DNA of 64,000 nt from IMG/VR virus record IMGVR_UViG_3300021964_009400. One strand, given 5' to 3'. Positions 32,419-62,659 of the stretch are shown here, piece after piece; position 1 is the stretch's first letter, and every line of letters begins with the position of its first letter. The notes under the pieces are model-generated. The model worked only from the letters and a program-made list of their open reading frames with translations, ran no database searches and was not told the origin of the DNA. The position numbers and the translations under genes are program-made. Source of the DNA: a virus. Its lineage: Duplodnaviria; Caudoviricetes.

Positions 32419-32427
32419 AAAAAAGTT

Positions 32428-37705: not shown

Positions 37706-38253
37706 TGGCAGAACCAAAGTTTACACCTTATTTAGATGCATTAACAGAGGCAATGAAACTTTGTATGGAAGATGATAAAACAATATTCATCGGACAACAG
37801 ATAGTTTATTATGGAAACCCAATGAGTAAAACTATTGAGGGATTGCCAAAAGAAAGAATGATAGAAACACCAGTAATGGAAGAAACCCAAATGGGAATGT
37901 CATTGGGTTTAGCAATGAGTGGATATAGTGTAGTAAGTTTTTATCCAAGATGGGATTTTGTAATTTGTGCAGGAAATCAACTCATAAATCATCTAGATAA
38001 AATTAATGTAATGTCTGATGGTGCATGGAATCCTAATATAATTATTAGAGTTGGTAAAGGTTCTGATACTCCATTAGACCCTGGTCATCAACATAAGGCA
38101 GATTATACAGAAGAATTTAAAACAATTTTAAAACATATAAATGTGATAAAACTTGATTCTCATGAAAAAATACTTCCTGCTTATAAAGATGCACTAAAAA
38201 AAGGTGGTATATGGTTGATGGTTGAATATCCTCAATTATATTATGAAAATTAA
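37705..38253 (+). CDS. Short ThDP-dependent E1 beta/transketolase pyrimidine-binding subunit
   Basis: IETPVMEETQMGMSLGLA; GNQLINHL; GHQH; 182 aa, lacks the C-terminal domain. Confidence 0.8.
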   Translation: MAEPKFTPYLDALTEAMKLCMEDDKTIFIGQQIVYYGNPMSKTIEGLPKERMIETPVMEETQMGMSLGLAMSGYSVVSFYPRWDFVICAGNQLINHLDKINVMSDGAWNPNIIIRVGKGSDTPLDPGHQHKADYTEEFKTILKHINVIKLDSHEKILPAYKDALKKGGIWLMVEYPQLYYEN

Positions 38254-39697
38254 TAGAGTATTTGATGTTATAGGTCCTAGAGGACCAGTTCCCAATGGAT
38301 TAAATTGGAATTATACCGATACTTTTTGGGATTATAATTTTTACATTTATCATAAACTTATAGATGCGTTTAATAAAAAATATACACAACTATCAGTTTA
38401 CGATTGTAATTTAAATCTACCAGGTGATAGTACAAAAACCTATCATATTAGTGATTTACATTTTGATGAATCAAAAAAATTAATCACAAATAATAATGAA
38501 AAATATTTCTATACCATACATCCATTTGGAAATGTTCATTTATCTACTGGTTTAGATATATCATATCATCAAGGAAAGCATAGTTTTGATTTTATATCAA
38601 AGAAAGCAAAAATATATTCAGAAGCAACAAACTTTTGGTTTATATATGATTATAGTAGTGAGGGAGATATTAATGAGTATATATTTGAATCACTACATGA
38701 ATCATGTAAGCGTACTAATATAAATCCTTCAAAAATTATTGTTATTACTGGTGCAGAAAATACATCTGATATTTATAAAAGTTTTTTAGAAAAAAATCCA
38801 CAAGATAATTTATTTTATACTGCATTTTATCCTTGGTCTCTTCTTGGAAAAGCGAAAGATACACAATCTATTTTGTTCGAAAGAAAAAGAATAAATTTTA
38901 ATGGTTTTAATAATGAAAATTCATTGATGTTAGATGATGAGTTTGATAAATTAACTCAAAGAGAATCTTATGCACTTTGTTTAAATAGAAGATTGGCACC
39001 ACATAGAATAATTTTAATTAGTTGGTTATTTGAAAACAATTTATTTGATAAAACAAAAACTTCTTATGATATAGAACTTTTACATAGAGATGATGCAGGA
39101 TTGGATTTAGTATCTGGTAGTGGTCACGATGGAGAAAGTTACTTATTAAATCAAGATACCAAGAATCAGATAATGAGTGGTTACAGAAAAATGATACAAA
39201 AAGAAAAAAATATAATTGATTTCAAAGATATTAAAAATGTGTGGGGATTTGCATTTGAAAAATCAGAAAATTACAAATCTACATATTTTTCAATTGTAAC
39301 AGAAACTTTGTTTTATGAGTATGGAAATTATTTATCTGAAAAAACATGGAAACCAATTGCACATTTGCATCCATTTGTATTAATTAGTAGACCAGGTATG
39401 TTGAAGTTTTTACATAGTTTAGGATTTAAAACATTTTCTGAATTTTGGGATGAAAGTTATGATACTATTGAATCAAATCCTAAAAGAATGGAAAAAATAC
39501 TTAAAGTATTAACAGATTTATTATCTAAAAGTAAAGATGAATGGGATGAGTTAAATAAAAAATTAAAACCAATACTTATTTATAATAGAAACTTACTTTT
39601 ATCGTTTCAAGAAAAAAAAGTAGGTAATGCTTATAAAAATAAATTATTTAATTTAATTGAAAATGAACCCAATCAAGAAAATTATTACTTACTTTAA
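38243..39697 (+). CDS. Putative glycosyltransferase (GT10-like, paralogue 4)
   Basis: LCLNRR..HR; YFSIVTET..YLSEKTWKPIAHLHPF..LGFKTFSEFWDESYD; ATG 38243 preferred over TTG 38222. Confidence 0.5.
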   Translation: MKINRVFDVIGPRGPVPNGLNWNYTDTFWDYNFYIYHKLIDAFNKKYTQLSVYDCNLNLPGDSTKTYHISDLHFDESKKLITNNNEKYFYTIHPFGNVHLSTGLDISYHQGKHSFDFISKKAKIYSEATNFWFIYDYSSEGDINEYIFESLHESCKRTNINPSKIIVITGAENTSDIYKSFLEKNPQDNLFYTAFYPWSLLGKAKDTQSILFERKRINFNGFNNENSLMLDDEFDKLTQRESYALCLNRRLAPHRIILISWLFENNLFDKTKTSYDIELLHRDDAGLDLVSGSGHDGESYLLNQDTKNQIMSGYRKMIQKEKNIIDFKDIKNVWGFAFEKSENYKSTYFSIVTETLFYEYGNYLSEKTWKPIAHLHPFVLISRPGMLKFLHSLGFKTFSEFWDESYDTIESNPKRMEKILKVLTDLLSKSKDEWDELNKKLKPILIYNRNLLLSFQEKKVGNAYKNKLFNLIENEPNQENYYLL

Positions 39698-39793: not shown

Positions 39794-39802
39794 ATATTTA
39801 TA
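39794..39802 (+). promoter_or_regulatory. Putative late promoter motif ATATTTATA
   Basis: 22 nt upstream of the polyprotein ATG 39825. Confidence 0.6.
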
Positions 39803-39824: not shown

Positions 39825-42800
39825 ATGAACAAACTTTCACAATTTCTCGTAGAGAGTATATTGGAGGACAAAAGTCCTATTAAGAAGGTGGTAGTAATTT
39901 ATGGTGGTAGATTTCAACCATTCCATAAAGGACACTACGGCACATACCAACACCTTGTCAAAAAATTCGGTAAAAATAATGTTTTTATCAGTACTTCCAA
40001 CAAAGTAGAAAAACCAAAATCACCTTTTAACTTTAAAGAGAAGGTGAAAATCATGACTACGATGTTCAATATACCTAAATCAAAAATAGTACAGGTAAAA
40101 AACAATTATGCTCCAACCGAAATCCTCAAAAAATACGATAAAAACACAACCGCCTTCATAGCCGTTGTTGGTGAAAAAGATTCCAATAGATTCCTTGGTG
40201 GAAAATATTTCAAACCATGGAAAGGGCATGCTGAAGTTGGTTATGAGGATGGTGGTTATGTTTATGCTGCTCCATCAAGTGGTGGTGGTATTAGTGGAAC
40301 TGAAACTCGAAATGGTTTATCAGTTGGTTCTGATGACCAGAAGAAGTCTTTCTTTAAATCTCGTGCATATGGAAAGTTCAATGCAACGATTTTTAATATG
40401 ATTACTGATAAACTTAATGAAGGGGTAATCGAGATTTCTAAAGAAAGGATAGAAGAATGGCTCATCAACGAGAGTTCGGTGATGAGTTCAGGTCAAGTGG
40501 ATGATGGGCCAAACTTCTTTATTCCAAACTACGATATATTTCAACGAGTATCTGCTAAAAGAGCAGCAAAGATTGGATATGAGGTTGTAAATATGATTAC
40601 TTCTAAAGAAATCGAAGATTACTATGACCATCCAAATTATCCTGATGGACCAGTAAAAGCAGTTACTTATTTCCCTGCTGGTGTTTTGGGTGCAAAAACC
40701 GCAACCAACCAAGTTGATATCTACTCATCTAAAGCATATTCGAATTGGTACAAACATATTACTCGTAAGGCATCAATGGTAGGTTATGAGTTGGTTAAAT
40801 CACTTGCAAGTAAAGAAGATTTAAAACAAGATAAGGAACAATCAGTAGATGATGCAAAAGGAGATAAGGTTTCTCAGAAAGAATACGAAGCATCTTTAAA
40901 TGAGGCAATCAATCTACCAGTAGAAGTTGGTGATACTATCTTAATGGGTAGATTTAAAAACAAAAAGGTTAAAGTAAAAACTATTGGTAAAGATGAACAT
41001 GGAATGCCAACTATCAATGGAAAAAAGGTTGTAACTTTCCGACTAATGAAAGAAGGTTTCGTAACCGAGCTCGCGGGAACTGAAGTAAAATGTGAAAAAT
41101 GTAATCATTCTTGGGATATAGAAGAAGATGATACAGAAAAGTACCTTTGCCACTCCTGTGGTTGGGATTCACAACAACAAGAATATGATTATGCGGCATT
41201 TGATTCTTGGCAAGAAAAAATGGGTATATCTGAAGATGTGGATATAGATGAAAGAAGTAAGGGTAGATTAAGACCAGCAGATTTATTGAGAAGAAAAGCA
41301 GCGATGGCTGGTAAACGAGCTCAAATTGCAAGAAGAAGAAAAAGAACAATGATGAGGAGAAAACCTCTTTCCAAGCTTAAAAAGATTGCATACAAAAAAG
41401 CATACCTACAAGTTTATGATGAGTTTATGCAGGATTTATTTCCTGGTATTGCTAAAAAAGATTTATCAATTCAACAAGCAAAGATAGTTCATAAGAATGT
41501 ATTAAGAAAAAAGAAAAGAGTTCTTAAAAGAGCAAGATTTAGATTCTTACCAGCATTAAGAGATAAAGAAGCAGAAAAGTTTGGTGGTAAAAATAATACA
41601 AACGAATTAATGATTGGATATGCAGGACCTGAAGATATGAAAAGGTTTGCAAAGAGAAATAAAGAATATAGAAAAGATGCTGAATCAAGTAAAGAGTATC
41701 AATACGAACCAATCAAAGAACAATCAGATAAAAAAACACAATGTATCAATAACTTTGTAGAATATGCTTGTAAAAGATTAAAACTTGATGGTAATCCGAA
41801 GATTTCATTAATGAGTGGTACAGAATATTCAGATACTCACAAAAGTTTAGGTGGTTTCAATCCACAAACAAAAGAAATCTATGTTGCAACTGAAAATAGA
41901 TTAACTGCTGATATTTGTAGAACTATTGCACATGAATTAGTTCATAGAAAACAAGATGAGATGGGATTATTAAAAGACCCAATCAAAGATGGAGCAGATG
42001 GTTCACCGATTGAAAACCAAGCTCATGCAGTAGCAGGTATTATTATGAGAGAATATGGTAGAATTGATGATACAATCTACCAAGAAGAAATTAACTCTTT
42101 TTATTACGATGATTTAGCAAAGTATGTTTACAAAAAAAGAGGAGTGATAAATAAATTGTTCAAAAACTTATCTGATGAGAAAAAGGCTGAGTATTTAGAA
42201 AAACTTTACATCAAATTATTCCAAGGACCAACTTCAAGAATGGTTCACAGAGATATCAAAGGTAAAGGTGGTGATTTATTGAAGATGTTAAGAAAAGATA
42301 GAAGATTAAAAGAAGGTAATGAACTTAAAAAATTAGAAATTACCGATTTTAAATCCCTCTTTAAGAAAATGCCAAGTGATTTACAAAAGAGAGTTTACAA
42401 TTTAAAGAACTTTGGACAGAGAGCAGATAAACATCCAGAGGGTAATGTACTTAAACACACAATCACAGTTGTAAATCGTTCAATCAAAGAAGATGATATT
42501 GATATTGCAATCGCAGCAATGTTCCACGATATAGGAAAAGATGAAACTGCTGGTATTCATCCAAAGAAAGGACACATTACACACTTTGGACATGAGAAAG
42601 TATCAGCATCTTTAGTAAAGAAGTATAAAAAGTTTATAGAATCAGTTGGTGGTAATCCAGCAAATGTATTTTACATTGTTAAAAACCATATGAGATATAA
42701 ACAACTATCTGTAATGACACCTAAAAAAGTAAATAAACTAAAATCATTCAGAGCATTCGATAAATTAGGTAAATTCTCTAAACACGATAGAGCAGGGTTA

Positions 42801-45182
42801 GATGAAAACAAAGCAACAAGAACAAAGTTCAATTTAACCATACCTTCTGATATTAAAAAACTTCAAAAGGCATTTAAAAAAGATAAAAAACAACTTTATG
42901 TAGTTGGTGGAGCAGTAAGAGATGCACTTGTTGGTAAGAAACCAAAAGATTTTGATTTAACAACAGATGCAACACCAGAAGAAATGATTAAGATTGCTAA
43001 AAAAGGTAATTTTAAACATTCTACAAATAATATAAACACAAATCTTGATTTAGGAAGTATAGCAATCAATGGACATGAAGTAACTACCTTCAGACAAGAT
43101 GTTGGTAAAGGTAGGAGACCAGATAAAGTAGTTTATTGTGATATTTCAACAGATTCGAAAAGAAGAGATTTAACTTGTAACTCTTTATACTACGATATTG
43201 AGAAAAAAGAGATTATTGATTTCCATGGTGGTGTAGAAGATATGAAAAAGGGAGTTATCAGAACAGTTGGTAAACCAGCGGAAAGATTTGATGAGGACCC
43301 ATTAAGAAAATTAAGAGCAGTAAGATTCGAAACTCGAATGAATGCTAAATTGGATAAAGAAACTTTAGATGCACTTAAAAAAGATAACAACATATCACAA
43401 CTTACAGGTGATAGAATAATGAGAGAGTTTAGAAGTGCAATTAAACAATCAAAAAATACTAAAGTTTATTTAGAAAGATGTGATGAAATTGGATTTACTA
43501 AACAAATCCTACCAGGTCTTAAAGTAAGTAAACCATATCCACACGATAATAACTATCTTACATTTATTGCATTTATCCTAAGAGATAATGACCCAAATAA
43601 TGTAGGAAAAGTATTAAATAAAATTGAGTATAGTAATGATGATAGAGATGATATCAAATTTTTAATATCACTAAAGAATTTTACACCTGATAAAATTATA
43701 CAATTTAAAAAACTACATAATAATGTAAAAAAACTCAAAGATAAAGATATAGTAGAGTTTGGTAAACGAATTGGTAAAAAACTTGATAAGTTTGTAAAAT
43801 TTAAACTATCAGTAAGTGGTAACGATGCACCAAAAGATTTAAAAGGACCTGAAATTGGATTGTGGTTAAAAAATCAAGAAAAGGAAAAGTTTATGAAAGA
43901 AATTGATGATTTAGTAAACGATATTGATAAAAAGATAGTTGAGATGTTTTTTCCAACTACTGAAATACCAAAACCAATAAACGAAGGTGGTGCGTATGGA
44001 CATATGTCTCACCCATTTGATACTGATATCAATTTAACCTTTGGACAACTTAAAGATATCGTAAATCGTGCACTCGAAGGTACACTTGAGTTCACAAGAG
44101 AGAAAACAGATGGTCAAGCACTAGCTATTTCATGGAGAGATGGTAGGTTAGTAGCAGCGAGGAACAAAGGACACCTAAAGAACAGAGGTGAGAACGCTTT
44201 AGATATCAAAGGTGTATCAGATAAGTTCCAAGGTAGGGGTGGGTTAAGTGATGCATATAATTATGCAATGAAAGACCTCTCAAATGCAATCAAATCACTT
44301 AACGATAAACAAAGAGATAAGATTTTTAAACAAGGTGCGTGTTTTATGAACCTTGAAGTGATATATCCAACATCAGTTAATGTGATTCCTTATGGACAGG
44401 CGCTACTTGTGTTTCATGGTACTATGGAATATGATATGGAAGGTAAAGCAATAGGTGAAAATGGAGAAGCAGCAAGAATATTGGCAGGTATGATTAAACA
44501 AGTCAATAAAGATGTACAAGATAATTACACAATTCAAGGACCTCCTGTTGTAAAATTACCAAAATCTCAAGACCTTTCTAAGAAAAGAAGTAAATACTCA
44601 TCAAAAATCTCAAAATTACAAAAAGAATTTGGATTAAAGGATACTGATGGTGTTGCAAACTATCACCAAGGGTGGTGGGAACAATGGGTTGATAAAAATT
44701 CACCATCAACACTTGATAACAAAACCAAAATGGGGTTAGTTAAGAGATGGGCATTCATGGATAAGAGTTTTAGATTAGATAATAAGAATATTTCTGATTC
44801 TAAAACACTTGAATGGGCTAAAAAGACAGATAAAGAGGACCAAAAGAAAATTTCCAAACAAAATTTAATGAAGTTTGAAGAGATTTTTCTTGGTCTTGGA
44901 GCAGAAGTATTGGAATTCACCTCATCAGCACTAACAGTTAATGCAGATTCTGCAGTTCGTGATATAAAGAAACGAATTGATAAAACAATTAAAGATGTTA
45001 AAAAATCAGGTGACCCAAAAAAGATAGAAAAACTTAAATTAGAACTTGAAAGATTAAATTCTATTGGTGGTTCTAAAAAAATTGTACCAAATGAAGGTAT
45101 AGTTTTCTTATATAAAGGAAATACTTTTAAACTTACAGGTACATTTGCATCAGTAAACCAAATACTTGGTATTTTCTTCTAA
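39825..45182 (+). CDS. 1785-aa multidomain polyprotein: NMNAT/HIGH nucleotidyltransferase, Zn ribbon, basic segment, zincin, HD, CCA-adding/poly(A) polymerase, ATP-dependent ligase-like
   Basis: GRFQPFHKGH and ISGTETR; CEKC..CHSC; AHELVH; HPEG..HT..FHDIGK..HFGHE..HM; GGAVRD..DFD..RRD..EDPLR; EKTDG..EGIV..K. Confidence 0.8.
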   Translation: MNKLSQFLVESILEDKSPIKKVVVIYGGRFQPFHKGHYGTYQHLVKKFGKNNVFISTSNKVEKPKSPFNFKEKVKIMTTMFNIPKSKIVQVKNNYAPTEILKKYDKNTTAFIAVVGEKDSNRFLGGKYFKPWKGHAEVGYEDGGYVYAAPSSGGGISGTETRNGLSVGSDDQKKSFFKSRAYGKFNATIFNMITDKLNEGVIEISKERIEEWLINESSVMSSGQVDDGPNFFIPNYDIFQRVSAKRAAKIGYEVVNMITSKEIEDYYDHPNYPDGPVKAVTYFPAGVLGAKTATNQVDIYSSKAYSNWYKHITRKASMVGYELVKSLASKEDLKQDKEQSVDDAKGDKVSQKEYEASLNEAINLPVEVGDTILMGRFKNKKVKVKTIGKDEHGMPTINGKKVVTFRLMKEGFVTELAGTEVKCEKCNHSWDIEEDDTEKYLCHSCGWDSQQQEYDYAAFDSWQEKMGISEDVDIDERSKGRLRPADLLRRKAAMAGKRAQIARRRKRTMMRRKPLSKLKKIAYKKAYLQVYDEFMQDLFPGIAKKDLSIQQAKIVHKNVLRKKKRVLKRARFRFLPALRDKEAEKFGGKNNTNELMIGYAGPEDMKRFAKRNKEYRKDAESSKEYQYEPIKEQSDKKTQCINNFVEYACKRLKLDGNPKISLMSGTEYSDTHKSLGGFNPQTKEIYVATENRLTADICRTIAHELVHRKQDEMGLLKDPIKDGADGSPIENQAHAVAGIIMREYGRIDDTIYQEEINSFYYDDLAKYVYKKRGVINKLFKNLSDEKKAEYLEKLYIKLFQGPTSRMVHRDIKGKGGDLLKMLRKDRRLKEGNELKKLEITDFKSLFKKMPSDLQKRVYNLKNFGQRADKHPEGNVLKHTITVVNRSIKEDDIDIAIAAMFHDIGKDETAGIHPKKGHITHFGHEKVSASLVKKYKKFIESVGGNPANVFYIVKNHMRYKQLSVMTPKKVNKLKSFRAFDKLGKFSKHDRAGLDENKATRTKFNLTIPSDIKKLQKAFKKDKKQLYVVGGAVRDALVGKKPKDFDLTTDATPEEMIKIAKKGNFKHSTNNINTNLDLGSIAINGHEVTTFRQDVGKGRRPDKVVYCDISTDSKRRDLTCNSLYYDIEKKEIIDFHGGVEDMKKGVIRTVGKPAERFDEDPLRKLRAVRFETRMNAKLDKETLDALKKDNNISQLTGDRIMREFRSAIKQSKNTKVYLERCDEIGFTKQILPGLKVSKPYPHDNNYLTFIAFILRDNDPNNVGKVLNKIEYSNDDRDDIKFLISLKNFTPDKIIQFKKLHNNVKKLKDKDIVEFGKRIGKKLDKFVKFKLSVSGNDAPKDLKGPEIGLWLKNQEKEKFMKEIDDLVNDIDKKIVEMFFPTTEIPKPINEGGAYGHMSHPFDTDINLTFGQLKDIVNRALEGTLEFTREKTDGQALAISWRDGRLVAARNKGHLKNRGENALDIKGVSDKFQGRGGLSDAYNYAMKDLSNAIKSLNDKQRDKIFKQGACFMNLEVIYPTSVNVIPYGQALLVFHGTMEYDMEGKAIGENGEAARILAGMIKQVNKDVQDNYTIQGPPVVKLPKSQDLSKKRSKYSSKISKLQKEFGLKDTDGVANYHQGWWEQWVDKNSPSTLDNKTKMGLVKRWAFMDKSFRLDNKNISDSKTLEWAKKTDKEDQKKISKQNLMKFEEIFLGLGAEVLEFTSSALTVNADSAVRDIKKRIDKTIKDVKKSGDPKKIEKLKLELERLNSIGGSKKIVPNEGIVFLYKGNTFKLTGTFASVNQILGIFF

Positions 45183-48579: not shown

Positions 48580-48619
48580 AAACAAAACAATAAAGGTTAT
48601 AATTTAAATTAGAAATAAA

Positions 48620-50356: not shown

Positions 50357-50374
50357 TTAAACTTATATAATTTT

Positions 50375-50383
50375 ATATTTATA
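50375..50383 (+). promoter_or_regulatory. Putative late promoter motif ATATTTATA
   Basis: 40 nt upstream of ATG 50424. Confidence 0.5.
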
Positions 50384-50423
50384 ATAGGGAAAATTTACTA
50401 TATCATAATAGGAAAAAATAACG

Positions 50424-52529: not shown

Positions 52530-52533
52530 AAAA

Positions 52534-52710
52534 ATGACCAAAAGAGAATTGTATGATATCATCAATGAAGAAATCGTTAATGTTAAAAAAGGAACTATTA
52601 ACGAAGAACTCACCGAATCTGATAAGGATATAATCCGAAAAATTATCAGACAAGAAGTATCGGCAATCTTTTTTGATTTATTTAAGAAAAGAAAAACTTG
52701 GGGAGCATAA
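52534..52710 (+). CDS. 58-aa putative prohead core protein (not in ORF track)
   Basis: MTKRELYDIINEEIVNVKKGTINEELTESDKDIIRKIIRQEVSAIFFDLFKKRKTWGA*; TAATG-coupled to the protease. Confidence 0.6.
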   Translation: MTKRELYDIINEEIVNVKKGTINEELTESDKDIIRKIIRQEVSAIFFDLFKKRKTWGA

Positions 52711-53303
52711 TGAACAATTTATTAATAGAAACAAGATTATTCGAAGGAAGGGTAAACGAAGATGATAGTGGAAGAACTATCGTTAAGGGTATTCTACAAA
52801 GAGCTGGTGCAGAAAATCAGAATGGTAGAATATATCCTAAACCTATCCTTATGAGAGAGGCAAAGAAATACGAAACACTTATTAAAGAAAGAAGAGCATT
52901 AGGTGAATTAGACCATCCTGATTCTTCTGTAATCAACTTAAAGAATGTATCTCACAATGTAAGAGAAATTCATTGGGATGGTGATGATTTAGTAGGAACA
53001 GTTGAGATTTTACCAACTCCAAGTGGTAACATCTTAAAAGAACTTCTACAAGCAGGTATTCTATTAGGTATATCATCAAGAGGTATGGGTTCAGTAGAAC
53101 CTTTATCAGGTGGTAAAGTTCAAGTAGGTGAAGATTTTGAATTGATTGGTTGGGATTTTGTTTCTAACCCATCTACTCATGGAGCATTTATGGTTCCTAT
53201 GAACGAATCTGTGAACAAACAACTTCAATCACAAACAGCAGTTTGTAATGAATGGTGTAAGGCACAAGATATGATGAGAGAAATTATAACAGAATTAAAT
53301 TAA
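52710..53303 (+). CDS. Prohead core protease (T4 gp21-like)
   Basis: AENQNGRIYP, ALGELDHP, LGISSRGMGS, WDFVSNPST; start ATG 52710, not TTG 52698. Confidence 0.95.
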   Translation: MNNLLIETRLFEGRVNEDDSGRTIVKGILQRAGAENQNGRIYPKPILMREAKKYETLIKERRALGELDHPDSSVINLKNVSHNVREIHWDGDDLVGTVEILPTPSGNILKELLQAGILLGISSRGMGSVEPLSGGKVQVGEDFELIGWDFVSNPSTHGAFMVPMNESVNKQLQSQTAVCNEWCKAQDMMREIITELN

Positions 53304-54975: not shown

Positions 54976-55185
54976 ATGAAACTAAAAGATTTATTACCAG
55001 AAGGATTTGTAGTAATGTACAAAGTGAGAAAAGACCTTAAGAATGTAAACATAGGTCCAGCTCAAGCATGGTATAAAGATAAATCTGATGCAGAAAAATT
55101 TTTAAAATCGGTTGAGAAAGATGGTGGTAAAGGAATGATTGTAAAGGATAAAGCACCAAAATCAAAAATCGATAGAGGAATATAA
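54976..55185 (+). CDS. Putative head-internal protein (69 aa)
   Basis: Leader MKLKDLLPE. Confidence 0.6.
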   Translation: MKLKDLLPEGFVVMYKVRKDLKNVNIGPAQAWYKDKSDAEKFLKSVEKDGGKGMIVKDKAPKSKIDRGI

Positions 55186-55476
55186 AAGGAGAGAACAATG
55201 AAACTAAAAGATATACTTAACGAAAGCAAAAATAATATTAGTGAGGCAAAAAAAGTTGACCCAAGAATAGCTGGTGATATTTTTGCAAGATATCTTATAG
55301 GAGATAGAACTGATGCAATAAGACAATTAGATAAATTAAAAAAAATTGCAAGTTTTGGAGTAATGGAGACGCCAGGAACAAAAGAATATAACCAACAATT
55401 CGCAGAACTCTCAGATAAAATTACAAAAGTAATTAGAGGAGTAATGTAATATTAAAGGAGAGAACAATGAAACTAA
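55185..55476 (+). repeat. 23-nt direct repeat covering RBS and first codons of adjacent genes
   Basis: AAAGGAGAGAACAATGAAACTAA at 55185-55207 and 55454-55476. Confidence 0.85.
55198..55449 (+). CDS. Putative head-internal protein (83 aa)
   Basis: Leader MKLKDILNE..NISE; AAGGAG RBS. Confidence 0.6.
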   Translation: MKLKDILNESKNNISEAKKVDPRIAGDIFARYLIGDRTDAIRQLDKLKKIASFGVMETPGTKEYNQQFAELSDKITKVIRGVM

Positions 55477-56225
55477 CCCAACTATTAAAAGAAAATGAAG
55501 AAAGACCTCTATCTAATGAGGTTAAAAGACATTTTCTTGAAATTGTTTCAACTTACAACAAGTATCAAGAATCAATGGATAGAAAATCAGATATTACTCA
55601 AGTAGCAGAAACCCTTGGTGGTATTACTGAAGCTGCTAGAACACTTGCAATCAAAGAAGCTGGTGATTGGTTCGATAAACATACTGTAAAGAGAAACATG
55701 AGTGAATTGGATAAGTTGGGTAAACAATTCGATAAAGTTGCTCTTGAGGCTCGTGCACTTGACCAAAGAATGGCAGGATTATACGAGGATATGGGACACA
55801 TCCTATCAAGATACTACAAGTTCGGTGAGATTACTGAAGATGAAATGAAAAACAGATTAGGTATCAACGAATCTAAAAAAGATTGTGGATGTGGATGTGG
55901 TGGAACAACAGTAGGTGGATGCAACGAATCAGTAAACAAAGAAACAATTACAGAACAATCTGTTGTAGTTCACAATAGAACACAAAATGGAAACATAGTT
56001 ACAGTATTAAAAGAATCTGATTTAAACGAAGAAGAAATGAAACTTTATGAGTTTGGTAAAAAAGTAACTCGGTTAATGGAAAAAAGTTGCCCAAATGACC
56101 CTGGTAAATGGGCAGCATCTAAAGCAGCAGCAAAAAAGAAGTTTGATGTATATCCTTCTGCATACGCTAATGGATGGGCTGCAAAAAACTACAAGGGTAA
56201 AGGTGGAACTTGGAAAAACTGTTAA
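55467..56225 (+). CDS. Putative modular head-internal protein
   Basis: Leader MKLTQLLKE; INE then CGCGCGG; ESVN; LME then basic module YPSAYANGW..YKGKGGTW. Confidence 0.6.
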   Translation: MKLTQLLKENEERPLSNEVKRHFLEIVSTYNKYQESMDRKSDITQVAETLGGITEAARTLAIKEAGDWFDKHTVKRNMSELDKLGKQFDKVALEARALDQRMAGLYEDMGHILSRYYKFGEITEDEMKNRLGINESKKDCGCGCGGTTVGGCNESVNKETITEQSVVVHNRTQNGNIVTVLKESDLNEEEMKLYEFGKKVTRLMEKSCPNDPGKWAASKAAAKKKFDVYPSAYANGWAAKNYKGKGGTWKNC

Positions 56226-56234
56226 GGAGAAATT

Positions 56235-57482
56235 ATGGAATTCGTATCTTATATAGAAACAAGAAAAGGTAAAAAATTACTTAAGGTATTTAAATCTAAA
56301 AGAGCAGTAGATATGTTCTTAAAGAAAAATACCGATAAAATTTTATCAAAGAGCGGTATTGAATCAGTTGGTTCAATGTCTAAAAGAGATTGGGATTCTA
56401 AAGAAGCCAAATACGCAGTAAACGAAGTTGGTAAGGGTAGTAATTGGGCAGAAAAATATGTAAATGATACTAATTTATATAAAAAATTAAATTGGTATAT
56501 GAAGATGGGCAAAGGTGTTGAGAAAAAAATCAAAGGTAAAGAATTTGTAATAATGTCCGATGGCAGTGCTCTTATATGGAATGCCAAAACATCTGATTGG
56601 GAATTGTATAAACCAAAAAGAATAGATAAAAAAACAGGTAAACCAATTTATGAATCAGTAAACGAAGGTAAAAAAAGATACTACCAACAAGATAGAGTTG
56701 GTTCAGCAAAATACACAATCTCTTACCACGATGGTAAAAAGAAACATAAAGATGGTAGTGATTTCTTTGATATCCAAACTTTCAGAAACAAAAAAGATTT
56801 AGCAAAATTTGTAAACACTTTACACAAAGGTGGATATGTTTATGGATTTAATGAATCAGTAAACGAAACAAAATATAAAGTAGGTGATACTCTTGCAGAA
56901 GGATTAATAAATCCAAAATCAGGACACGAATACTTTCAACTTACTAAAAACACACCTGTAAAATATATTGCAGGACATTCTGGTTTAGGACTTACAACTC
57001 CTGGAGTTTTATTGAAAAACATACCTGGATTTATTGATGGTAAAAAGGGTGCGTATTTAATTGATTATCATGGTGCACTTTTTTATGTAGATTTAAAAAA
57101 GAAAGTTGCCGTTAGATTAGGATATGATTTAAGTAAACAACCTAAATTAAGGTATAAAACTAATTTTATCAGAGTTCCTCAGGCACCAGAATTTTCAGAT
57201 TGGAAAAGATATTTAAAAGAATCAGAAGATGGTGTACCACAAGGATACAATCCAATGGTAGAATCTAAAACGAAAGAAAGTAAAGTAATTCAAAAAATAC
57301 ACACATACACAAAAACTGAAAAAAAGTTTTATGACGAACTTGCAAAACATGAAGTAAGAATCGGACAAAACGATTATGCTAAATTTATTATTAACGCATT
57401 AAGAGGATTTGGTATCAATCCAAGAGAATTCAAAAGAATACCTGATGCCGAAGAAAAACTCTATCAAATAGTATCAAAATAA
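56235..57482 (+). CDS. Putative polyprotein of small modules
   Basis: Five or six segments separated by AVNE, ESVNE, FNESVNE, LKESE and VES; AAGGAG RBS. Confidence 0.6.
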   Translation: MEFVSYIETRKGKKLLKVFKSKRAVDMFLKKNTDKILSKSGIESVGSMSKRDWDSKEAKYAVNEVGKGSNWAEKYVNDTNLYKKLNWYMKMGKGVEKKIKGKEFVIMSDGSALIWNAKTSDWELYKPKRIDKKTGKPIYESVNEGKKRYYQQDRVGSAKYTISYHDGKKKHKDGSDFFDIQTFRNKKDLAKFVNTLHKGGYVYGFNESVNETKYKVGDTLAEGLINPKSGHEYFQLTKNTPVKYIAGHSGLGLTTPGVLLKNIPGFIDGKKGAYLIDYHGALFYVDLKKKVAVRLGYDLSKQPKLRYKTNFIRVPQAPEFSDWKRYLKESEDGVPQGYNPMVESKTKESKVIQKIHTYTKTEKKFYDELAKHEVRIGQNDYAKFIINALRGFGINPREFKRIPDAEEKLYQIVSK

Positions 57483-57493
57483 AGGAAAAAATT

Positions 57494-58885
57494 ATGAGAC
57501 TCAGAGACTTATTACCAGAACAAGAAACATTCACTGCTACTAACAAAAAGAGTGGAGAAACTGCGGTATTCAAATCTAAAGATTCAAGAGATGCAGCAAT
57601 TAAAGCAGGAACTCACGAACCTATTGAAAAGGGAGGTGATGAAAAATCTGATAAACAGAAATCACCTGGTAAAGTAAGTGGGAAAGATATGTTTAAACAT
57701 GCTTCTGATATCAAAAAAGATAAAGAAGAAACTCCAAAAGATAATCAAAAAGATTGGGATGGGAAAACACTTCCAAAAACTCCAGCTTTTAGTGGAGAAG
57801 AAAAGGTCAATTATTTGAATGATATAACTACTAGCATGGATATGTACAAAAGTGGTAAAGTGAATAGTAGTTGGGAAGCAAGAGATAAATATTTTGATGA
57901 ATTGTATAATAATACTATTTGGTCGTTGGAGGAGTTCATATATCAAACAGGATATAAACAAGGTGATTTTGACATAGATTCACTTCAAAAAAAAGTTGAT
58001 GAATTATATAAAGATGTAATGCGTGGTGCAGAACATACTGATGAAACAATGGGTAGAAAAATCTCACCTTCTCAGAACCAAGAAATTCAAAATGAAATAG
58101 GTAGAATAGCTAAAGAAATTTCTCAAAAAATTGACAACCCAACAGAACATACTCGAAAAGAGTGGGATAGAAGTATGCCAAAAAACTCTGATATGTTTGG
58201 TGGGGATGATAATCAAATAGATTTAGACCAAAAAGAGTTCAACTCAGGAAAAATTTGGTATCGTCAATCTGCTGAAGATATTAATAAAGAAGAAGGTTAT
58301 GATGGTTATATAGGAACTACTCAGAGGGTATATAATCAAATGAGAGATTGGCTTCGTTCCAATGCAAAACTCCATAGAGAAGAAGTATCCGATATGTTGC
58401 AAGGCCTTAGAAACAAAAGTTTGAAAATGCAAAAAGACGCAAAAAGATTTGATAAACTTTCAACCTTTCATAAGAGAGAAGTTGAAGATGAAATAGGTCA
58501 TTTAGCTAATTTAATTGGAAAAAAGTACAAACAACCAAAACCAAAACCTGAACCAAAACCTGAACCAAAATCAGAACCAAAATCAGAGCCAAAATCAGAA
58601 CCAAGGCCTGAACCAAGACCACAACCAAGGACTGAACCATCACCAGAAGAAAAGGCTAAAAAAGAATTAAGTGGTGCAACTGCTTTAGGATTTAGTGATA
58701 TAGAAAAATTAGGTTCTAAAGCTGCTAGTGATATTGATATGGCAGTTAGAAGAGACCCTAATTATACTCGTGGTAGTAGACCTGGTGATGATGATAGATT
58801 AAGAGCTAAAAAAGCAAAAGAATTAGGATATATAGATGAAGTTAAATCAATGAAACTAATAGATTTATTACCTAATGTAAAATAA
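57494..58885 (+). CDS. Putative modular head-internal protein
   Basis: Leader MRLRDLLPE; FTAT..RDAAIKAGTHE module; PEPK repeats; C-terminal IDE-VKSMKLIDLLP. Confidence 0.6.
   Translation: MRLRDLLPEQETFTATNKKSGETAVFKSKDSRDAAIKAGTHEPIEKGGDEKSDKQKSPGKVSGKDMFKHASDIKKDKEETPKDNQKDWDGKTLPKTPAFSGEEKVNYLNDITTSMDMYKSGKVNSSWEARDKYFDELYNNTIWSLEEFIYQTGYKQGDFDIDSLQKKVDELYKDVMRGAEHTDETMGRKISPSQNQEIQNEIGRIAKEISQKIDNPTEHTRKEWDRSMPKNSDMFGGDDNQIDLDQKEFNSGKIWYRQSAEDINKEEGYDGYIGTTQRVYNQMRDWLRSNAKLHREEVSDMLQGLRNKSLKMQKDAKRFDKLSTFHKREVEDEIGHLANLIGKKYKQPKPKPEPKPEPKSEPKSEPKSEPRPEPRPQPRTEPSPEEKAKKELSGATALGFSDIEKLGSKAASDIDMAVRRDPNYTRGSRPGDDDRLRAKKAKELGYIDEVKSMKLIDLLPNVK
58535..58639 (+). repeat. 12-nt tandem coding repeat (PEPK/SEPK/PEPR)
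   Basis: ccaaaacctgaa / ccaaaatcagaa units in frame. Confidence 0.85.
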
Positions 58886-59253
58886 TGCAACTCCAAGAAC
58901 TATGTAAGGAAATTATAGAAGAAAACAGATGTATCCATTGTGGAAACATTGTTAACGAAGATTTGCGTAATTGGTTCAAATCAAAGTGGGTTAACATTGG
59001 TAAGAAAGATAAAAGTGGAAAACACCCACCATGTGGAACAAGTGGTGATAAGAGTGGATATGCTAAATGTGTTCCAGCTTCAAAAGCTAAATCTATGAGT
59101 AAAAAAGAAAAAGAATCTGCAACTCGTAGAAAGAGGACAGCACAAAACAAGGCAAATCGTGGTGGTAAGGCATCGAGAGGTCAAGGAAAGAAACCTATAA
59201 ATGTTTCTACCCATACTGGTGGAAAAAAGAGTGGGACCGGAAAAGGTTCATAA
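58885..59253 (+). CDS. Putative head-internal basic protein
   Basis: Leader MQLQELCKEIIEE; CIHC; VNE then DLRNWFKSKWVNIG..CG..KCVP basic domain. Confidence 0.55.
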   Translation: MQLQELCKEIIEENRCIHCGNIVNEDLRNWFKSKWVNIGKKDKSGKHPPCGTSGDKSGYAKCVPASKAKSMSKKEKESATRRKRTAQNKANRGGKASRGQGKKPINVSTHTGGKKSGTGKGS

Positions 59254-61048: not shown

Positions 61049-62659
61049 ATGGCAAATTTTGATTTATCTAAACTTATGGAAGGAAAGAACCCACAACAAG
61101 TTATGCTTGCTGAGACAAGAGAACTTAAGTCAAAGTGGGATAGAACTGGACTTCTAGAAGGTTTAAACGAGAGAGAGCAATCTCAAATTTCTGTACTTCT
61201 TGAGAACCAAGCAAAACAATTACTTGATGAGGCAACTCAAACAGGTACTTCAGCTGGTTCAGAAGAATGGAGTGGTGTTGCTCTTCCTTTGGTAAGAAGG
61301 ATTTTTGGTGAAATAGCATCAAAAGAATTCGTTAGCGTTCAGCCAATGAACTTACCATCTGGTCTAATATTCTATTTAGACTTTAAATATGGAACTGCTC
61401 AACCAGGAAATCCTGGATTTAGCGGAAAATCACTTTTCGGTGGAACAGGTTCGGACTTAGGTTCAACTGACTCTGCAGTAAATGGTCTTTATGGAGAAGG
61501 AAGATTCGGATATTCAGTAAATGATGTATCTGATTCAGTTGCTTCAGGAGACATAACACTAGCATCAGCTTCATGGGCAGATGTACAATATGATGCATCA
61601 TTATCATCATCAGTTGCTGATGGTTCATTAGCAAAATTTACTTTCGCTCATAACGAACTAGTAAGACCTGATTTAGATGCAGTAAGAAGTTTTTACATTT
61701 CTTCATCAGATTTCGCTACTGCTGATGCATTTTACCCAGCACATTCAAAAGTATCTGGTGCTAACATTATAGTATTCGCTAAAACAAGTGGATTACCACT
61801 TGCTGATAGCTTAACTGTAAAGCATTCACAACAACCAGTTGCTGAAAACAGAGGTGACTTTGAAGATGGAAACGCTGGTGGTGTTTCTTCAGTAGGTGAA
61901 GATTTAGGTATTCCAGAAGTAGACCTAGAGTTAAAGTCTGAAGCAATCGTTGCTAAGACTAGAAAACTAAAGGCTGTATGGACACCTGAATTGGCTCAAG
62001 ACCTTAATGCTTACCACTCAATCGATGCTGAAGCTGAATTAACTTCTATGTTATCTGAGTACATCTCATTAGAGATTGACCTAGAAATCTTAGATATGTT
62101 AAAATCAAACGCTTTAACATCTGAATACTGGTCAGTAACTTTAGGTGAAGAGTATGATTCAAACAATACATCATGGGTAGCTGGAAGTAATTCTGCTGCT
62201 TACACTAAAAACTCTTGGTTCCAAACACTTGGTGCTAAGATTAATAAAGTAAGTAACAAGATTCACCAGTTAACTTTAAGAGGTGGAGCAAACTTTATTG
62301 TTGCTTCTCCAGATGTTTGTACGATTTTAGAATCAATCCCAGGATTTACAGTTTCTGCTGATAAAGATGCTTCATCTTTCGCAGCTGGTGTAACTACTGT
62401 TGGTTCTTTATCTAACAGATATACTGTGTACAAAAACCCTTATATGACTTCTAACGAAATCTTATTAGGATTTAAAGGTTCAAACTTCCTAGAAACAGGA
62501 GCAGTTTATGCACCTTATGTACCATTAATCATGACACCTCTTGTATATGACCCAACTAACTTTACACCAAGAAGAGGTGTAATGACTAGATACGCTAAGA
62601 AAATGGTAAGACCAGAATTCTATGGTAAAATCTATGTTAAAGATTTAGCTAACCTATAA
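61049..62659 (+). CDS. Major capsid protein (T4 gp23-like)
   Basis: PLVRRIFG..VSVQPMNLPSGLIFYL; KTRKLKAVWTPELAQDLNAYHSIDAEAEL; YAPYVPL; F.PRRGVMTRY. Confidence 0.97.
   Translation: MANFDLSKLMEGKNPQQVMLAETRELKSKWDRTGLLEGLNEREQSQISVLLENQAKQLLDEATQTGTSAGSEEWSGVALPLVRRIFGEIASKEFVSVQPMNLPSGLIFYLDFKYGTAQPGNPGFSGKSLFGGTGSDLGSTDSAVNGLYGEGRFGYSVNDVSDSVASGDITLASASWADVQYDASLSSSVADGSLAKFTFAHNELVRPDLDAVRSFYISSSDFATADAFYPAHSKVSGANIIVFAKTSGLPLADSLTVKHSQQPVAENRGDFEDGNAGGVSSVGEDLGIPEVDLELKSEAIVAKTRKLKAVWTPELAQDLNAYHSIDAEAELTSMLSEYISLEIDLEILDMLKSNALTSEYWSVTLGEEYDSNNTSWVAGSNSAAYTKNSWFQTLGAKINKVSNKIHQLTLRGGANFIVASPDVCTILESIPGFTVSADKDASSFAAGVTTVGSLSNRYTVYKNPYMTSNEILLGFKGSNFLETGAVYAPYVPLIMTPLVYDPTNFTPRRGVMTRYAKKMVRPEFYGKIYVKDLANL

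What the first reader, a model, noticed from the sequence alone, without database searches (positions are those of the whole stretch)
39825..45182. Candidate virion-packaged, protease-processed anti-defence polyprotein (NAD+ restoration plus tRNA repair)
Seen: one 1785-aa ORF under the late motif, starting with a capsid-targeting-like leader (MNKLSQFLVE). It strings together NMNAT-like, Zn-ribbon, Arg/Lys-rich, HExxH zincin, HD, CCA-adding and ligase-like domains. Domain borders coincide with hydrophobic-x-Glu sites: LNE 40413, INE 40464, LNE 40896, IDE 41244, IKE 41712, LKE 42306 (before HD), LDE 42798 (before CCA), MKE 43893 and INE 43977 (before the ligase-like domain). Known: T4 gp21 cleaves head proteins after [ILV]-x-E; T4 repairs PrrC-cut tRNA with Pnk and Rnl1; phages carry NAD+ reconstitution enzymes against NAD-depleting defences. 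Inference: the gp21 homologue at 52710 cuts this protein inside the prohead into separate enzymes injected with the DNA, as a pre-loaded counter-defence kit.
Basis: partly seen in the sequence, partly recalled or inferred. Interest (0 to 1): 0.92.

Follow-up and report, generated by a model that had tools for sequence, protein, structure and literature searches.

The report
Phage modular cargo polyprotein, RNA-repair enzymes
A distant T4-like phage encodes a 1785-residue string of enzymes (NMNAT-like, zincin, HD, CCA-adding, RNA-ligase-like). It begins with a T4-style capsid-targeting leader, and every module border carries a prohead-protease-type hydrophobic-x-Glu site, so it is probably packed into the head, cut into pieces and injected, although no experiment shows this yet.

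Summary
ORF 39825-45182 (1785 aa) is real, and all nine listed hydrophobic-x-Glu sites are at the stated coordinates. The domain calls hold: cytidylyltransferase/NMNAT-like, Zn ribbon, basic helical module, HExxH zincin, CCA-type HD, class II CCA-adding enzyme, and an RNA-ligase-like C-terminus.

The count of h-x-E sites is only what composition predicts (30 against 29.7). Their placement is not chance. In 387 relatives with more than 40 architectures, modules are added, lost, permuted or split into separate genes exactly at these sites. P3 and Glu are conserved and x varies.

The 10-residue leader matches the T4 capsid-targeting sequence in register. In this window the strict leader pattern occurs only on this ORF and five head-module ORFs. 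The phage encodes a gp21-family (S77) protease, and its capsid protein keeps L-x-E|A at the T4 gp23 cleavage position.

- Packaging and processing are well supported by comparison but untested.
- An RNA-repair theme is supported; relatives add P-loop kinase and 2H phosphoesterase modules.
- This protein has no 5'-kinase.
- NAD+ restoration is unsupported.

Closest known kinds are polyvalent proteins and T4 CTS-targeted internal proteins. I rate it a new variant of a known kind. Other readers of this scan flagged the same stretch.

The parts
39794..39802 (+). Promoter-like motif ATATTTATA, 31 nt upstream of the start codon.
   Evidence: 16 copies in the window against 4.8 expected, 14 on the + strand. 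Copies also precede 3791, 5745, 14067, 23627, 45242, 48199, 50424 and 62815.
39825..39854 (+). N-terminal leader, residues 1-10 (MNKLSQFLVE), a capsid-targeting-sequence analogue ending in L-V-E.
   Evidence: It matches the T4 CTS MKTYQEFIAE in register: hydrophobic at 4, F at 7, I/L at 8, E at 10. It is conserved in 106 of 172 N-terminally complete relatives. It also heads proteins whose first module differs.
39867..40421 (+). NT module, residues 15-199: HxGH nucleotidyltransferase (NMNAT/NaMNAT/PPAT-like), ending at LNE 197-199.
   Evidence: Pfam CTP_transf_like. Invariant H34, H37, S157, T159, R162. AF2 pLDDT 84-94. Foldseek top hits are NaMN/NMN adenylyltransferases and PPAT, E about 2e-5. 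NCBIfam NMNAT models match far below their cut-offs.
40422..40472 (+). Linker, residues 200-216, with four h-x-E sites (VIE, IEE, INE and the preceding LNE).
   Evidence: pLDDT below 50. Sites 197 and 214 are conserved in 0.78 and 0.77 of relatives.
40473..40904 (+). X module, residues 217-360: conserved sequence of unknown fold, ending at LNE 358-360.
   Evidence: Present in 158 relatives. AF2 gives no confident fold and the atlas has no hit. LNE 358 is conserved in 0.92 of relatives with variable x.
40905..41252 (+). Small beta module (361-415) and CxxC...CxxC Zn ribbon (416-476). Junction sites are VTE 413, ISE 468 and IDE 474.
   Evidence: Beta strands 371-432 at pLDDT 50-70. Weak Zn-ribbon/HypA hits. 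Sites 413 and 468 are conserved in 0.91 and 0.93 of relatives.
41253..41720 (+). Basic (Arg/Lys-rich) helical module, residues 477-632, ending at IKE 630-632.
   Evidence: Helices at pLDDT 70-94. The module end EYQYxx[IV]xE is followed directly by seven different modules in relatives.
41721..42095 (+). Minimal zincin-like metallopeptidase module, residues 633-757.
   Evidence: Invariant HExxH, Q78 and G106 and a nearly invariant downstream Glu in 19 sequences. Sub-threshold hits to DUF6782, Peptidase_M78, M76 and Tox-MPTase3. Present in only 27 of 385 relatives searched.
42096..42314 (+). Small module of unknown function, residues 758-830, ending at LKE 828-830.
   Evidence: In relatives it occurs on its own directly after the basic module.
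42315..42806 (+). HD phosphohydrolase module, residues 831-994, of the type found in CCA-adding/repair enzymes, ending at LDE 992-994.
   Evidence: Pfam HD, E 2e-8. NCBIfam CCA-enzyme HD regions, E 5e-9 and 1.5e-7. LDE is conserved in 0.95 of relatives with variable x.
42807..43985 (+). Class II tRNA nucleotidyltransferase (CCA-adding type) module, residues 995-1387, with a tail ending at INE 1385-1387.
   Evidence: Pfam PolyA_pol, E 5e-28. PHROG tRNA nucleotidyltransferase, E 6e-53. PDB CCA/poly(A) enzymes, E 4e-29. NCBIfam.
43986..45182 (+). RNA-ligase-like (DUF6267-type) module, residues 1388-1785, beginning GGAYGHM.
   Evidence: Invariant KxDG, R, E, EG and K motifs. AF2 pLDDT 91.5. The top 47 Foldseek hits are RNA or DNA ligases. 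VIA-align Z 8.9-8.2 to Naegleria Rnl, T4 Rnl1, REL1 and Trl1. 1760 clusters at 50% identity, with the module almost always C-terminal in the 150 best hits listed. [LIV]xE precedes GG in 224 of 225.
52698..53303 (+). Prohead protease of the T4 gp21 family, the proposed processing enzyme (ATG at 52710 gives MNNLLIE...).
   Evidence: Pfam Peptidase_S77, E 3e-26. PHROG head maturation protease, E 7e-49. 28% identity to T4 gp21, E 5e-23.
54976..59253 (+). Head-module ORFs with the same type of leader (54976, 55198, 55467, 57494, 58885): candidate co-packaged internal proteins.
   Evidence: The strict leader pattern occurs only in these five ORFs and the polyprotein among 50 ORFs. The N-terminal domain of 57494 is an internal module of polyprotein relative P0242.
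61049..62659 (+). Major capsid protein with a predicted maturation site L-D-E61|A62.
   Evidence: PHROG major head protein, E 2e-70. A BLASTP segment aligns L59-D-E61-A62 with T4 gp23 L63-T-E65-A66.

Best explanation
The ORF encodes a late-expressed modular cargo protein, a polyvalent protein, of a distant T4-like myovirus.

Proposed mechanism:
1. Its 10-residue N-terminal leader works like the T4 capsid-targeting sequence and brings the protein into the prohead core.
2. The gp21-family (S77) prohead protease then cuts after Glu in [LIVM]-x-E motifs in the flexible linkers.
3. This releases about ten separate polypeptides: an NMNAT-like nucleotidyltransferase, module X, a small beta module, a Zn ribbon, a basic helical protein, a minimal zincin, a small unknown module, an HD phosphoesterase, a CCA-adding enzyme and an RNA-ligase-like enzyme whose new N-terminus is GGAYGHM.
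4. The pieces stay in the head and enter the next host with the DNA.

The enzymatic theme is repair of damaged RNA, most likely tRNA. The HD module would heal 3' ends, the CCA enzyme would rebuild acceptor ends and the ligase would seal breaks. The middle cassettes vary between phages as a counter-defence payload.

Shown here by computation: the ORF, the domain identities, module shuffling exactly at h-x-E junctions, the leader, the protease family, the promoter motif and the synteny. Inferred: packaging, cleavage, ejection and the biological role.
For: (1) Modules are independent units bounded by h-x-E.
- There are more than 40 architectures among about 240 relatives, with a constant NT-X-bZn-basic head and ligase tail, variable middle cassettes and permuted order.
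- The basic module ends with [IV]xE and seven different modules follow directly.
- [LIV]xE precedes the ligase in 224 of 225 relatives, with at least ten different residues at x and often in tandem.
- Every module start is preceded by h-x-E: 132/136, 99/103, 45/45, 82/82 and 18/18.
- Junction sites keep P3 and Glu in 0.76-0.95 of relatives while x varies. Most internal sites do not.

(2) Gene splits occur at the same places.
- In locus L007 the protein is three genes. The ligase gene starts M-GGAYGH and the CCA gene has its own MNSRLLAE leader.
- 51 of 55 stand-alone ligases carry a short leader ending h-x-E right before GG.

(3) The leader matches the T4 CTS.
- It matches MKTYQEFIAE (PMC8442874) at positions 4, 7, 8 and 10, which experiments show to be needed for targeting and processing (PMC9026906).
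- It precedes different first modules.
- In this window the strict pattern is limited to this ORF and five head-module ORFs out of 50.

(4) Protease.
- It is Peptidase_S77, 28% identical to gp21.
- The capsid protein has LDE61|A aligned to the T4 gp23 cleavage site.
- An S77 protease lies 7-9 kb downstream in all four contexts examined.

(5) Junction sites lie in stretches with pLDDT below 50, while internal sites lie in confident folds.

(6) Cargo exchange with head-module genes.
- The N-domain of head gene 57494 is an internal module of relative P0242.
- DUF5661 and DUF3008 are polyprotein modules in some phages and separate genes next to the protease in L004.

(7) A late-type motif is shared with structural genes.

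(8) RNA-repair repertoire in relatives: Zeta/AAA_33 kinases, 2H phosphoesterase, HD and CCA.
Against: - There is no experimental evidence. Only one cultured relative exists in the phage collection, Microcystis phage Mel-JY01, and I found no paper on it.
- In some clades the residue before GG is Met, Cys or Ala instead of Glu, although an S77 protease is present. That site is therefore not always a Glu site, and the preceding Leu-Leu may be partly structural.
- In L007 the ligase gene has no leader, so the ligase can apparently work without N-terminal targeting.
- The h-x-E count equals the compositional expectation.
- This protein and the 84-kb record (41% complete) have no 5'-kinase, so a classical heal-and-seal pathway is incomplete here.
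- Module X was not modelled confidently, so low pLDDT around 200-360 is weak evidence of flexibility.
- The sequences are related, so counts over relatives are not independent events.
Confidence: 0.58

Rival explanations
1. It is an unprocessed, cytoplasmic multi-enzyme protein for RNA and nucleotide metabolism. It is made late and acts in the producer cell. The h-x-E sites and the N-terminal helix are only features of linkers and of the first domain.
For: - Phage RNA ligases, CCA enzymes and end-healing enzymes are normally cytoplasmic (PMC7824862).
- The h-x-E count is as expected from composition.
- The ligase gene of L007 has no leader.
- AF2 models the leader as a helix beside the NT domain at pLDDT about 60.
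Against: - It does not explain why P3 and Glu are kept while x varies at every junction.
- It does not explain why stand-alone ligases and a split-off CCA gene carry 7-16-residue leaders ending h-x-E.
- It does not explain why the leader heads proteins with different first modules.
- It does not explain why the strict leader pattern is otherwise confined to head-module ORFs.
Confidence: 0.15
2. It is targeted to the prohead and cut by the protease, but the pieces serve head assembly or DNA condensation, or are expelled like scaffold fragments. They are not an injected counter-defence kit.
For: - T4 core proteins gp22, gp67 and gp68 are cut and mostly leave the head (PMC7411985).
- The basic module resembles basic internal proteins in composition.
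- The constant NT-X-bZn-basic head could be a structural core component.
Against: - The catalytic motifs of the NT, HD, CCA, zincin and ligase modules are invariant or intact, which argues for enzymes that work after release.
- The middle cassettes vary in the way conflict payloads do.
- The density of h-x-E is low (1.7 per 100 residues) compared with the scaffold-like ORF 59792 (5.1).
Confidence: 0.17
3. The protein is processed, but by its own zincin module or by a host protease rather than by the prohead protease, as proposed for some polyvalent proteins.
For: - Zincin-like peptidase domains are a hallmark of polyvalent proteins, and autoprocessing was proposed for P1 DdrB (PMC5512222).
- This protein has an intact HExxH plus Glu module.
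Against: - The zincin occurs in only 27 of 385 relatives searched, while the junction motif is present in all architectures.
- The motif is the gp21-type [LI]-x-E, which is also kept at the capsid protein's maturation site.
Confidence: 0.05

Closest known systems
Polyvalent proteins of phages and conjugative elements (Iyer, Burroughs, Anand, de Souza, Aravind 2017, PMC5512222)
   Same: - Many effector domains sit in one chain.
- It is encoded next to the terminase, portal and head genes.
- It includes a zincin-like peptidase module, and relatives carry ParB-like modules.
- Architectures vary widely.
- Delivery with the DNA is predicted.
   Different: - Here the junctions carry a gp21-type h-x-E motif and the chain starts with a T4-type targeting leader. 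This points to processing by the prohead protease rather than by the embedded peptidase.
- The constant anchor is a C-terminal RNA-ligase-like module.
- In the passages of that paper I read, ATP-grasp RNA ligases come up only as not being associated with the 2H domains of polyvalent proteins.
T4 internal proteins IPI-III and Alt, with capsid-targeting sequences cut by gp21 (PMC9026906, PMC8442874, PMC7411985)
   Same: - A 10-residue leader with hydrophobic residues at 4, 7 and 8 and Glu at 10.
- A gp21-family protease is encoded.
- Cargo is variable between related phages.
- Some cargo is enzymatic (Alt).
   Different: - T4 cargo proteins are single proteins cut once or twice at their ends.
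- Here one chain would be cut at about ten internal junctions into separate enzymes.
- None of this is shown experimentally.
Head proteins of giant phages (phiKZ, 201phi2-1, SPN3US) processed by gp21-like proteases
   Same: Many head and ejection proteins are cut after Glu in short motifs by a diverged gp21 homologue. Multiple sites give redundancy.
   Different: - In the papers I read, those cuts are described as removing propeptides. Release of a string of enzymes from one chain is not described there.
- The motif differs: from my own knowledge, S/A/G-x-E in phiKZ-like phages.
- The phage lineage is different.
T4 tRNA repair (Pnkp plus Rnl1) and RNA-repair systems of jumbo phages (PMC7824862)
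   Same: An RNA-ligase fold with the KxDG motif set, end-healing phosphoesterase and CCA-adding enzyme. Relatives add P-loop kinases and a 2H phosphoesterase.
   Different: - Those enzymes are separate cytoplasmic proteins.
- Here they are fused, leader-tagged and placed beside head genes.
- This protein has no kinase.
- The ligase has a roughly 190-residue helical insertion between motifs IIIa and IV and matches no ligase Pfam model.

Membership tests
Polyvalent proteins (Iyer et al. 2017) | Many (2-15) unrelated effector domains in one polypeptide of a phage or conjugative element. | tested here: met
   At least ten modules, five of them with enzyme signatures.
Polyvalent proteins (Iyer et al. 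2017) | Gene lies among virion and packaging genes. | tested here: met
   Two small genes upstream of the large terminase, in the same position in Mel-JY01, L004 and L007.
Polyvalent proteins (Iyer et al. 2017) | Packaged in the capsid and delivered with the DNA. | not testable with these tools
   Needs virion proteomics. No cultured relative with such data was found.
T4-type CTS-targeted substrates of the gp21 protease | N-terminal leader of about 10 residues with determinants at positions 4 and 7 (targeting) and 8 and 10 (processing, Glu at 10). | tested here: met
   MNKLSQFLVE against MKTYQEFIAE: L4/Y4, F7/F7, L8/I8, E10/E10. Conserved in the family.
T4-type CTS-targeted substrates of the gp21 protease | The phage encodes a Peptidase_S77 prohead protease with [LI]-x-E specificity. 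| tested here: inconclusive
   Family membership is met. Specificity is only inferred, from LDE61|A in the capsid protein aligned with the T4 gp23 site.
T4-type CTS-targeted substrates of the gp21 protease | Cleavage after the motif Glu, and presence of the product in mature heads. | not testable with these tools
   The protease-substrate complex job gave no answer. Mass spectrometry is needed.
ATP-dependent RNA ligases (covalent nucleotidyltransferase superfamily) | Adenylyltransferase fold. | tested here: met
   AF2 pLDDT 91.5. The top 47 Foldseek hits are all RNA or DNA ligases, though at weak E of about 8e-3. Z 8.9-8.2 over 185-208 residues to Rnl5, Rnl1, REL1 and Trl1.
ATP-dependent RNA ligases (covalent nucleotidyltransferase superfamily) | Motif I KxDG with the catalytic Lys, plus motifs III, IV and V. 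| tested here: met
   Invariant K52, D54, G55, R71, E136, E382, G383 and K394 in 41 sequences down to 38% identity. Assigning these columns to the named motifs is my own reading.
ATP-dependent RNA ligases (covalent nucleotidyltransferase superfamily) | Match to a curated ligase sequence model. | tested here: not met
   No Pfam, NCBIfam or PDB sequence hit for this protein. One of 41 relatives hits PF09414 at E 0.0085. The atlas points to DUF6267.
Class II CCA-adding tRNA nucleotidyltransferase | PolyA_pol head domain with the neck motif (EDxxR). | tested here: met
   PF01743, E 5e-28, over the full profile. FDEDPLR is at 1155-1161. NCBIfam CCA and PcnB models match at E 1e-44 to 1e-46 but below equivalog cut-offs. 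CCA-adding and A-adding or poly(A) activity cannot be told apart here.
NMN adenylyltransferase (NadM/archaeal type) | HxGH and ISxTxxR motifs on a Rossmann-like nucleotidyltransferase fold. | tested here: met
   GRFQPFHKGH and ISGTETR are present, with their key residues (G28-P32, H34, H37; S157, T159, R162) invariant. The fold matches NaMNAT, NMNAT and PPAT equally.
NMN adenylyltransferase (NadM/archaeal type) | Score above the curated NMNAT family cut-offs, as a proxy for substrate specificity. | tested here: not met
   The best NMNAT models score 25-27 bits against cut-offs of 127-397, and cover residues 23-90 only.
Zincin-like metallopeptidase | HExxH with a third metal ligand, on a zincin fold. 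| tested here: inconclusive
   Invariant HExxH and a nearly invariant downstream Glu. Only sub-threshold Pfam hits. No structure was predicted for this module.

The most novel reading that the evidence does not exclude
A large, mostly uncultured group of T4-like phages uses the prohead protease as a polyprotein-processing enzyme. In this reading, a leader-tagged string of enzymes is loaded into the prohead and cut at [LI]-x-E junctions, and the pieces are injected as a pre-made RNA-repair and anti-defence kit. Cassettes can be swapped freely because each one carries its own cleavage site. The string is anchored by a new family of RNA ligases (DUF6267-type) with 1760 sequence clusters.
Probability: 0.45. 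Interest if true: 0.88.

Novelty: new variant of a known kind. Interest (0 to 1): 0.78.

Why it matters
If true, RNA repair would be added to the short list of activities that phages carry ready-made in the virion. Known examples are the T4 Alt ADP-ribosyltransferase, the N4 virion RNA polymerase and anti-restriction proteins. RNA repair would then be available before any phage gene is expressed.

It would also show that a capsid maturation protease can work as a polyprotein-processing enzyme for cargo. That mechanism is familiar from RNA viruses but has not been described for tailed-phage cargo.

The family is large and almost wholly unannotated. Its variable cassettes (DUF5661, ROS/MucR, P-loop kinases, 2H, cupin, GNAT, ParB-like and several unknown modules) would form a catalogue of candidate counter-defence proteins with built-in domain boundaries.

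The leader plus h-x-E rule could also be used to predict packaged proteins in uncultured T4-like phages. The idea is directly testable with one cultured relative (Mel-JY01) or by co-expression.

Tried and rejected
- Protease with a junction peptide (residues 1362-1401) in complex prediction: no verdict, score 0.00. This is evidence neither for nor against binding.
- An alignment of single-module slices to residues 1-1000 for folding (A2) came out misaligned and was dropped. A co-linear alignment (A3) was used instead.
- AF2 did not give a confident fold for module X (217-360), and the atlas search found nothing for it.
- Sequence and profile searches of the PDB with the ligase profile and the zincin profile gave only noise.
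- Literature searches for DUF6267 and for Mel-JY01 found nothing.
- Searches of the 84-kb record for Nampt (PF04095) and AAA_33 kinase found nothing. The record is only 41% complete, so absence is weak evidence. There are no tRNA genes in the window.
- Over-representation of h-x-E in the ORF was rejected: 30 observed against 29.7 expected.
- Self-processing by the zincin was rejected as the general mechanism, because it is present in only 27 of 385 relatives searched.
- That [LI]xE before GG is an obligatory part of the ligase fold was rejected. Two ligase genes start at M-GG, and the stretch is unmodelled in AF2.
Full report
OBSERVATION.
The window is part of an 84-kb viral record that CheckV rates 41% complete. 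It has about 30% G+C, and almost all genes are on the + strand. ORF 39825-45182 is open for 1785 codons from an ATG. Relatives 75-93% identical and of the same length occur on other contigs, so it is not an assembly artefact.

Phage and genomic context.
- The phage is a distant T4-like myovirus. Its capsid protein is 54-57% identical to those of Microcystis phage Mel-JY01 and an uncultured 484-kb phage, and 27% identical to Aeromonas T4-like phages.
- Downstream lie the large terminase, portal, a Peptidase_S77 protease, several small ORFs, bS21, a scaffold-like ORF and the capsid protein.
- The protease is 28% identical to T4 gp21.
- The motif ATATTTATA sits 31 nt before the ATG. It occurs 16 times in the window against 4.8 expected, mostly in front of structural genes.

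DOMAINS.
- NT, residues 15-199. Pfam cytidylyltransferase-like, with HxGH and SxTxxR invariant and a confident fold. The nearest structures are NaMN/NMN adenylyltransferases and PPAT. NMNAT family models match far below their cut-offs. It is NMNAT-like, but its substrate is unknown.
- X, residues 217-360. The sequence is conserved but no fold was obtained.
- Residues 361-476. A small beta module and a CxxC...CxxC Zn ribbon.
- Residues 477-632. An Arg/Lys-rich helical module.
- Residues 633-757. A minimal zincin with invariant HExxH and a nearly invariant downstream Glu. It has only sub-threshold peptidase hits.
- Residues 758-830. A small module that occurs on its own in relatives.
- Residues 831-994. 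An HD domain whose best matches are the HD regions of CCA addition/repair enzymes.
- Residues 995-1387. A class II tRNA nucleotidyltransferase.
- Residues 1388-1785. No Pfam match, but invariant KxDG, R, E, EG and K columns in 41 sequences down to 38% identity. The AF2 model has pLDDT 91.5. Its top 47 Foldseek hits are all RNA or DNA ligases, at weak E-values. VIA-align gives Z 8.9-8.2 over 185-208 residues to Naegleria Rnl, T4 Rnl1, REL1 and Trl1. A roughly 190-residue helical insertion separates motif IIIa from motif IV. The atlas links the module to DUF6267.

IS THE SITE PATTERN MORE THAN CHANCE?
The count is not: 30 [LIVMF]xE sites against 29.7 expected from composition. The placement is. 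A search of 1.84 billion representatives found 1760 clusters holding the ligase module. In the 150 best hits listed it is almost always at the C-terminus of proteins of 400-1900 residues.

Among about 240 closer relatives there are more than 40 architectures. They share a constant NT-X-bZn-basic head and a ligase tail. The middle holds variable cassettes, including zincin, HD, CCA and several unknown modules, in changing order.

The breakpoints fall exactly after the Glu:
- The basic module ends EYQYxx[IV]xE, and seven different modules follow directly.
- The ligase is preceded by [LIV]xE in 224 of 225 cases. At least ten different residues occur at x, and the motif is often tandem.
- Each module start is preceded by a site within 14-16 residues: 132/136, 99/103, 45/45, 82/82 and 18/18. 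A random window of that size would hold one about 20% of the time; this is my estimate from the site density.
- In relatives under 85% identity, junction sites keep P3 and Glu in 0.76-0.95 of cases while x varies. Most internal sites are kept in fewer than 0.65, or have a fixed x as in the FDEDPLR motif of CCA enzymes.
- Site 1357 is weak (0.36). Site 468 is better than 474.

The sequences are related, so these counts are not independent events. The variety of upstream partners is the stronger argument. In the AF2 models the junction sites lie in stretches with pLDDT below 50, and internal sites lie in confident folds. For 200-360 this is weak evidence, because the whole region was poorly modelled.

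LEADER.
Residues 1-10 read MNKLSQFLVE. The T4 capsid-targeting sequence is MKTYQEFIAE (PMC8442874). Experiments place its targeting determinants at positions 4 and 7 and its processing determinants at 8 and 10 (PMC9026906). The two leaders agree in register at all four positions.

The leader is conserved in the family. It also heads proteins whose first module is the beta module, module X or the ligase, so it is an independent unit. Of 55 stand-alone ligases, 51 have a short leader, mostly 15 residues, ending h-x-E just before GG. In this window a strict leader pattern is found in this ORF and five head-module ORFs (54976, 55198, 55467, 57494, 58885). None of the other 44 ORFs has it.

PROTEASE SPECIFICITY.
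BLASTP aligns L59-D-E61-A62 of the capsid protein with L63-T-E65-A66 of T4 gp23. From my own knowledge, E65|A66 is the gp21 maturation cut. Mel-JY01 has I-S-E|A at the same place. An S77 protease lies 7-9 kb downstream of the gene in all four contexts examined.

GENE FISSION AND CARGO EXCHANGE.
- In locus L007 the protein is split into three genes. The first is leader-NT-X-cupin. The second holds CCA plus 2H and has its own MNSRLLAE leader. The third is a ligase that starts M-GGAYGH. The predicted post-cleavage N-terminus is therefore a natural protein N-terminus elsewhere.
- In Mel-JY01 the gene at the same position is leader-NT-ligase.
- The N-terminal domain of head-module gene 57494 is an internal module of relative P0242, at 37% identity and E 3.5e-13.
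- DUF5661 and DUF3008 are polyprotein modules in some phages and separate genes beside the protease in L004.

FUNCTION.
Across 56 diverse relatives the variable part holds DUF5661 (10), Zeta-toxin/AAA_33 P-loop kinases (6 and 5), CCA enzymes (4), extra cytidylyltransferase domains (4), ROS/MucR (4), HD (2) and a 2H phosphoesterase (1). Kinase, phosphoesterase, CCA enzyme and ligase together are the parts list of RNA heal-and-seal repair (PMC7824862).

This protein itself has no kinase or Walker motif. It could restore CCA ends, remove 2',3'-cyclic or 3'-phosphates and seal 5'-phosphate breaks. It could not on its own repair PrrC-type cuts.

NAD+ restoration rests only on a generic NMNAT-like fold, and no Nampt was found in the incomplete record. 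I rate that part at about 0.15.

WEAK POINTS.
- Nothing is experimental.
- In some clades the residue before GG is Met, Cys or Ala, although an S77 protease is present. The pre-ligase site is therefore not universally a Glu site.
- The L007 ligase lacks a leader.
- The complex prediction gave no answer.

COMPARISON AND VERDICT.
The closest known kinds are the polyvalent proteins of Iyer et al. 2017 and the T4 CTS-targeted internal proteins and Alt.

What is new:
- Targeting by a T4-type leader combined with about ten internal protease-type junctions in one chain.
- An RNA-repair payload.
- A new ligase family as the constant anchor.

I rate it a new variant of a known kind. My confidence is about 0.58 that the protein is packaged and cut by the prohead protease, and about 0.5 that its role is RNA or tRNA repair on entry. 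Other first-stage readers of this scan flagged the same stretch and the leader family. I checked the leader claims and the ligase claim myself.

Noticed in passing
window 48199-59253: About ten head-module ORFs begin with short leaders ending in hydrophobic-x-Glu (for example MKLTQLLKE, MRLRDLLPE, MKLKDLLPE, MKLKDILNE, MQLQELCKE). They look like a set of capsid-targeted internal proteins. Most have no Pfam match.
   Followed up: partly
window 53490-54974 and 57494-58885: These are two paralogous head-module proteins. They share an N-terminal domain (FTATxKxxGExxVFKxK...) right after their leaders. The same domain is an internal module of polyprotein relative P0242 (residues 413-532).
   Followed up: partly
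L007:2321-7597: A related phage has the polyprotein split into three adjacent genes: NT-X-cupin, then CCA-2H with its own leader, then a ligase starting M-GGAYGH. The position upstream of terminase, portal and S77 protease is the same.
   Followed up: yes
L004:4273-7227: Relative P0319 carries a motif that looks ParB-like to me (DGHHRW) before the NT domain, and a ROS/MucR zinc finger. Its pre-ligase junction is LLLC|GG instead of LxE|GG, although an S77 protease is encoded 7 kb downstream. The motif LLE|GGAY also recurs at an internal junction.
   Followed up: partly
window 59295-59618: A ribosomal protein bS21 homologue lies on the same strand as the head genes, between the leader-bearing ORFs and the scaffold-like ORF. 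In the published freshwater bS21 phages it is on the opposite strand (PMC9723584).
   Followed up: no
window 59792-61018: A scaffold-like acidic ORF has 21 hydrophobic-x-Glu sites in 408 residues (5.1 per 100). That fits a core protein that the protease degrades to small peptides.
   Followed up: no
window 21367-39697: A long run of ORFs lies between a 2430-residue ORF (14067-21359) and the polyprotein. Two of them begin with Gly-rich N-termini that look SDR/epimerase-like to me.
   Followed up: no
window, 16 sites (for example 3756, 5718, 14037, 23603, 39794, 45207, 48172, 50375, 62773): ATATTTATA is over-represented three-fold, strand-biased, and sits 20-50 nt before gene starts. It is a candidate late promoter element of this phage group.
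   Followed up: partly
L008:13637-14641 (T4): In T4, the RNA ligase 2 gene (rnlB) lies directly beside head gene 24. This is a loose parallel to a ligase gene placed next to head genes.
   Followed up: no
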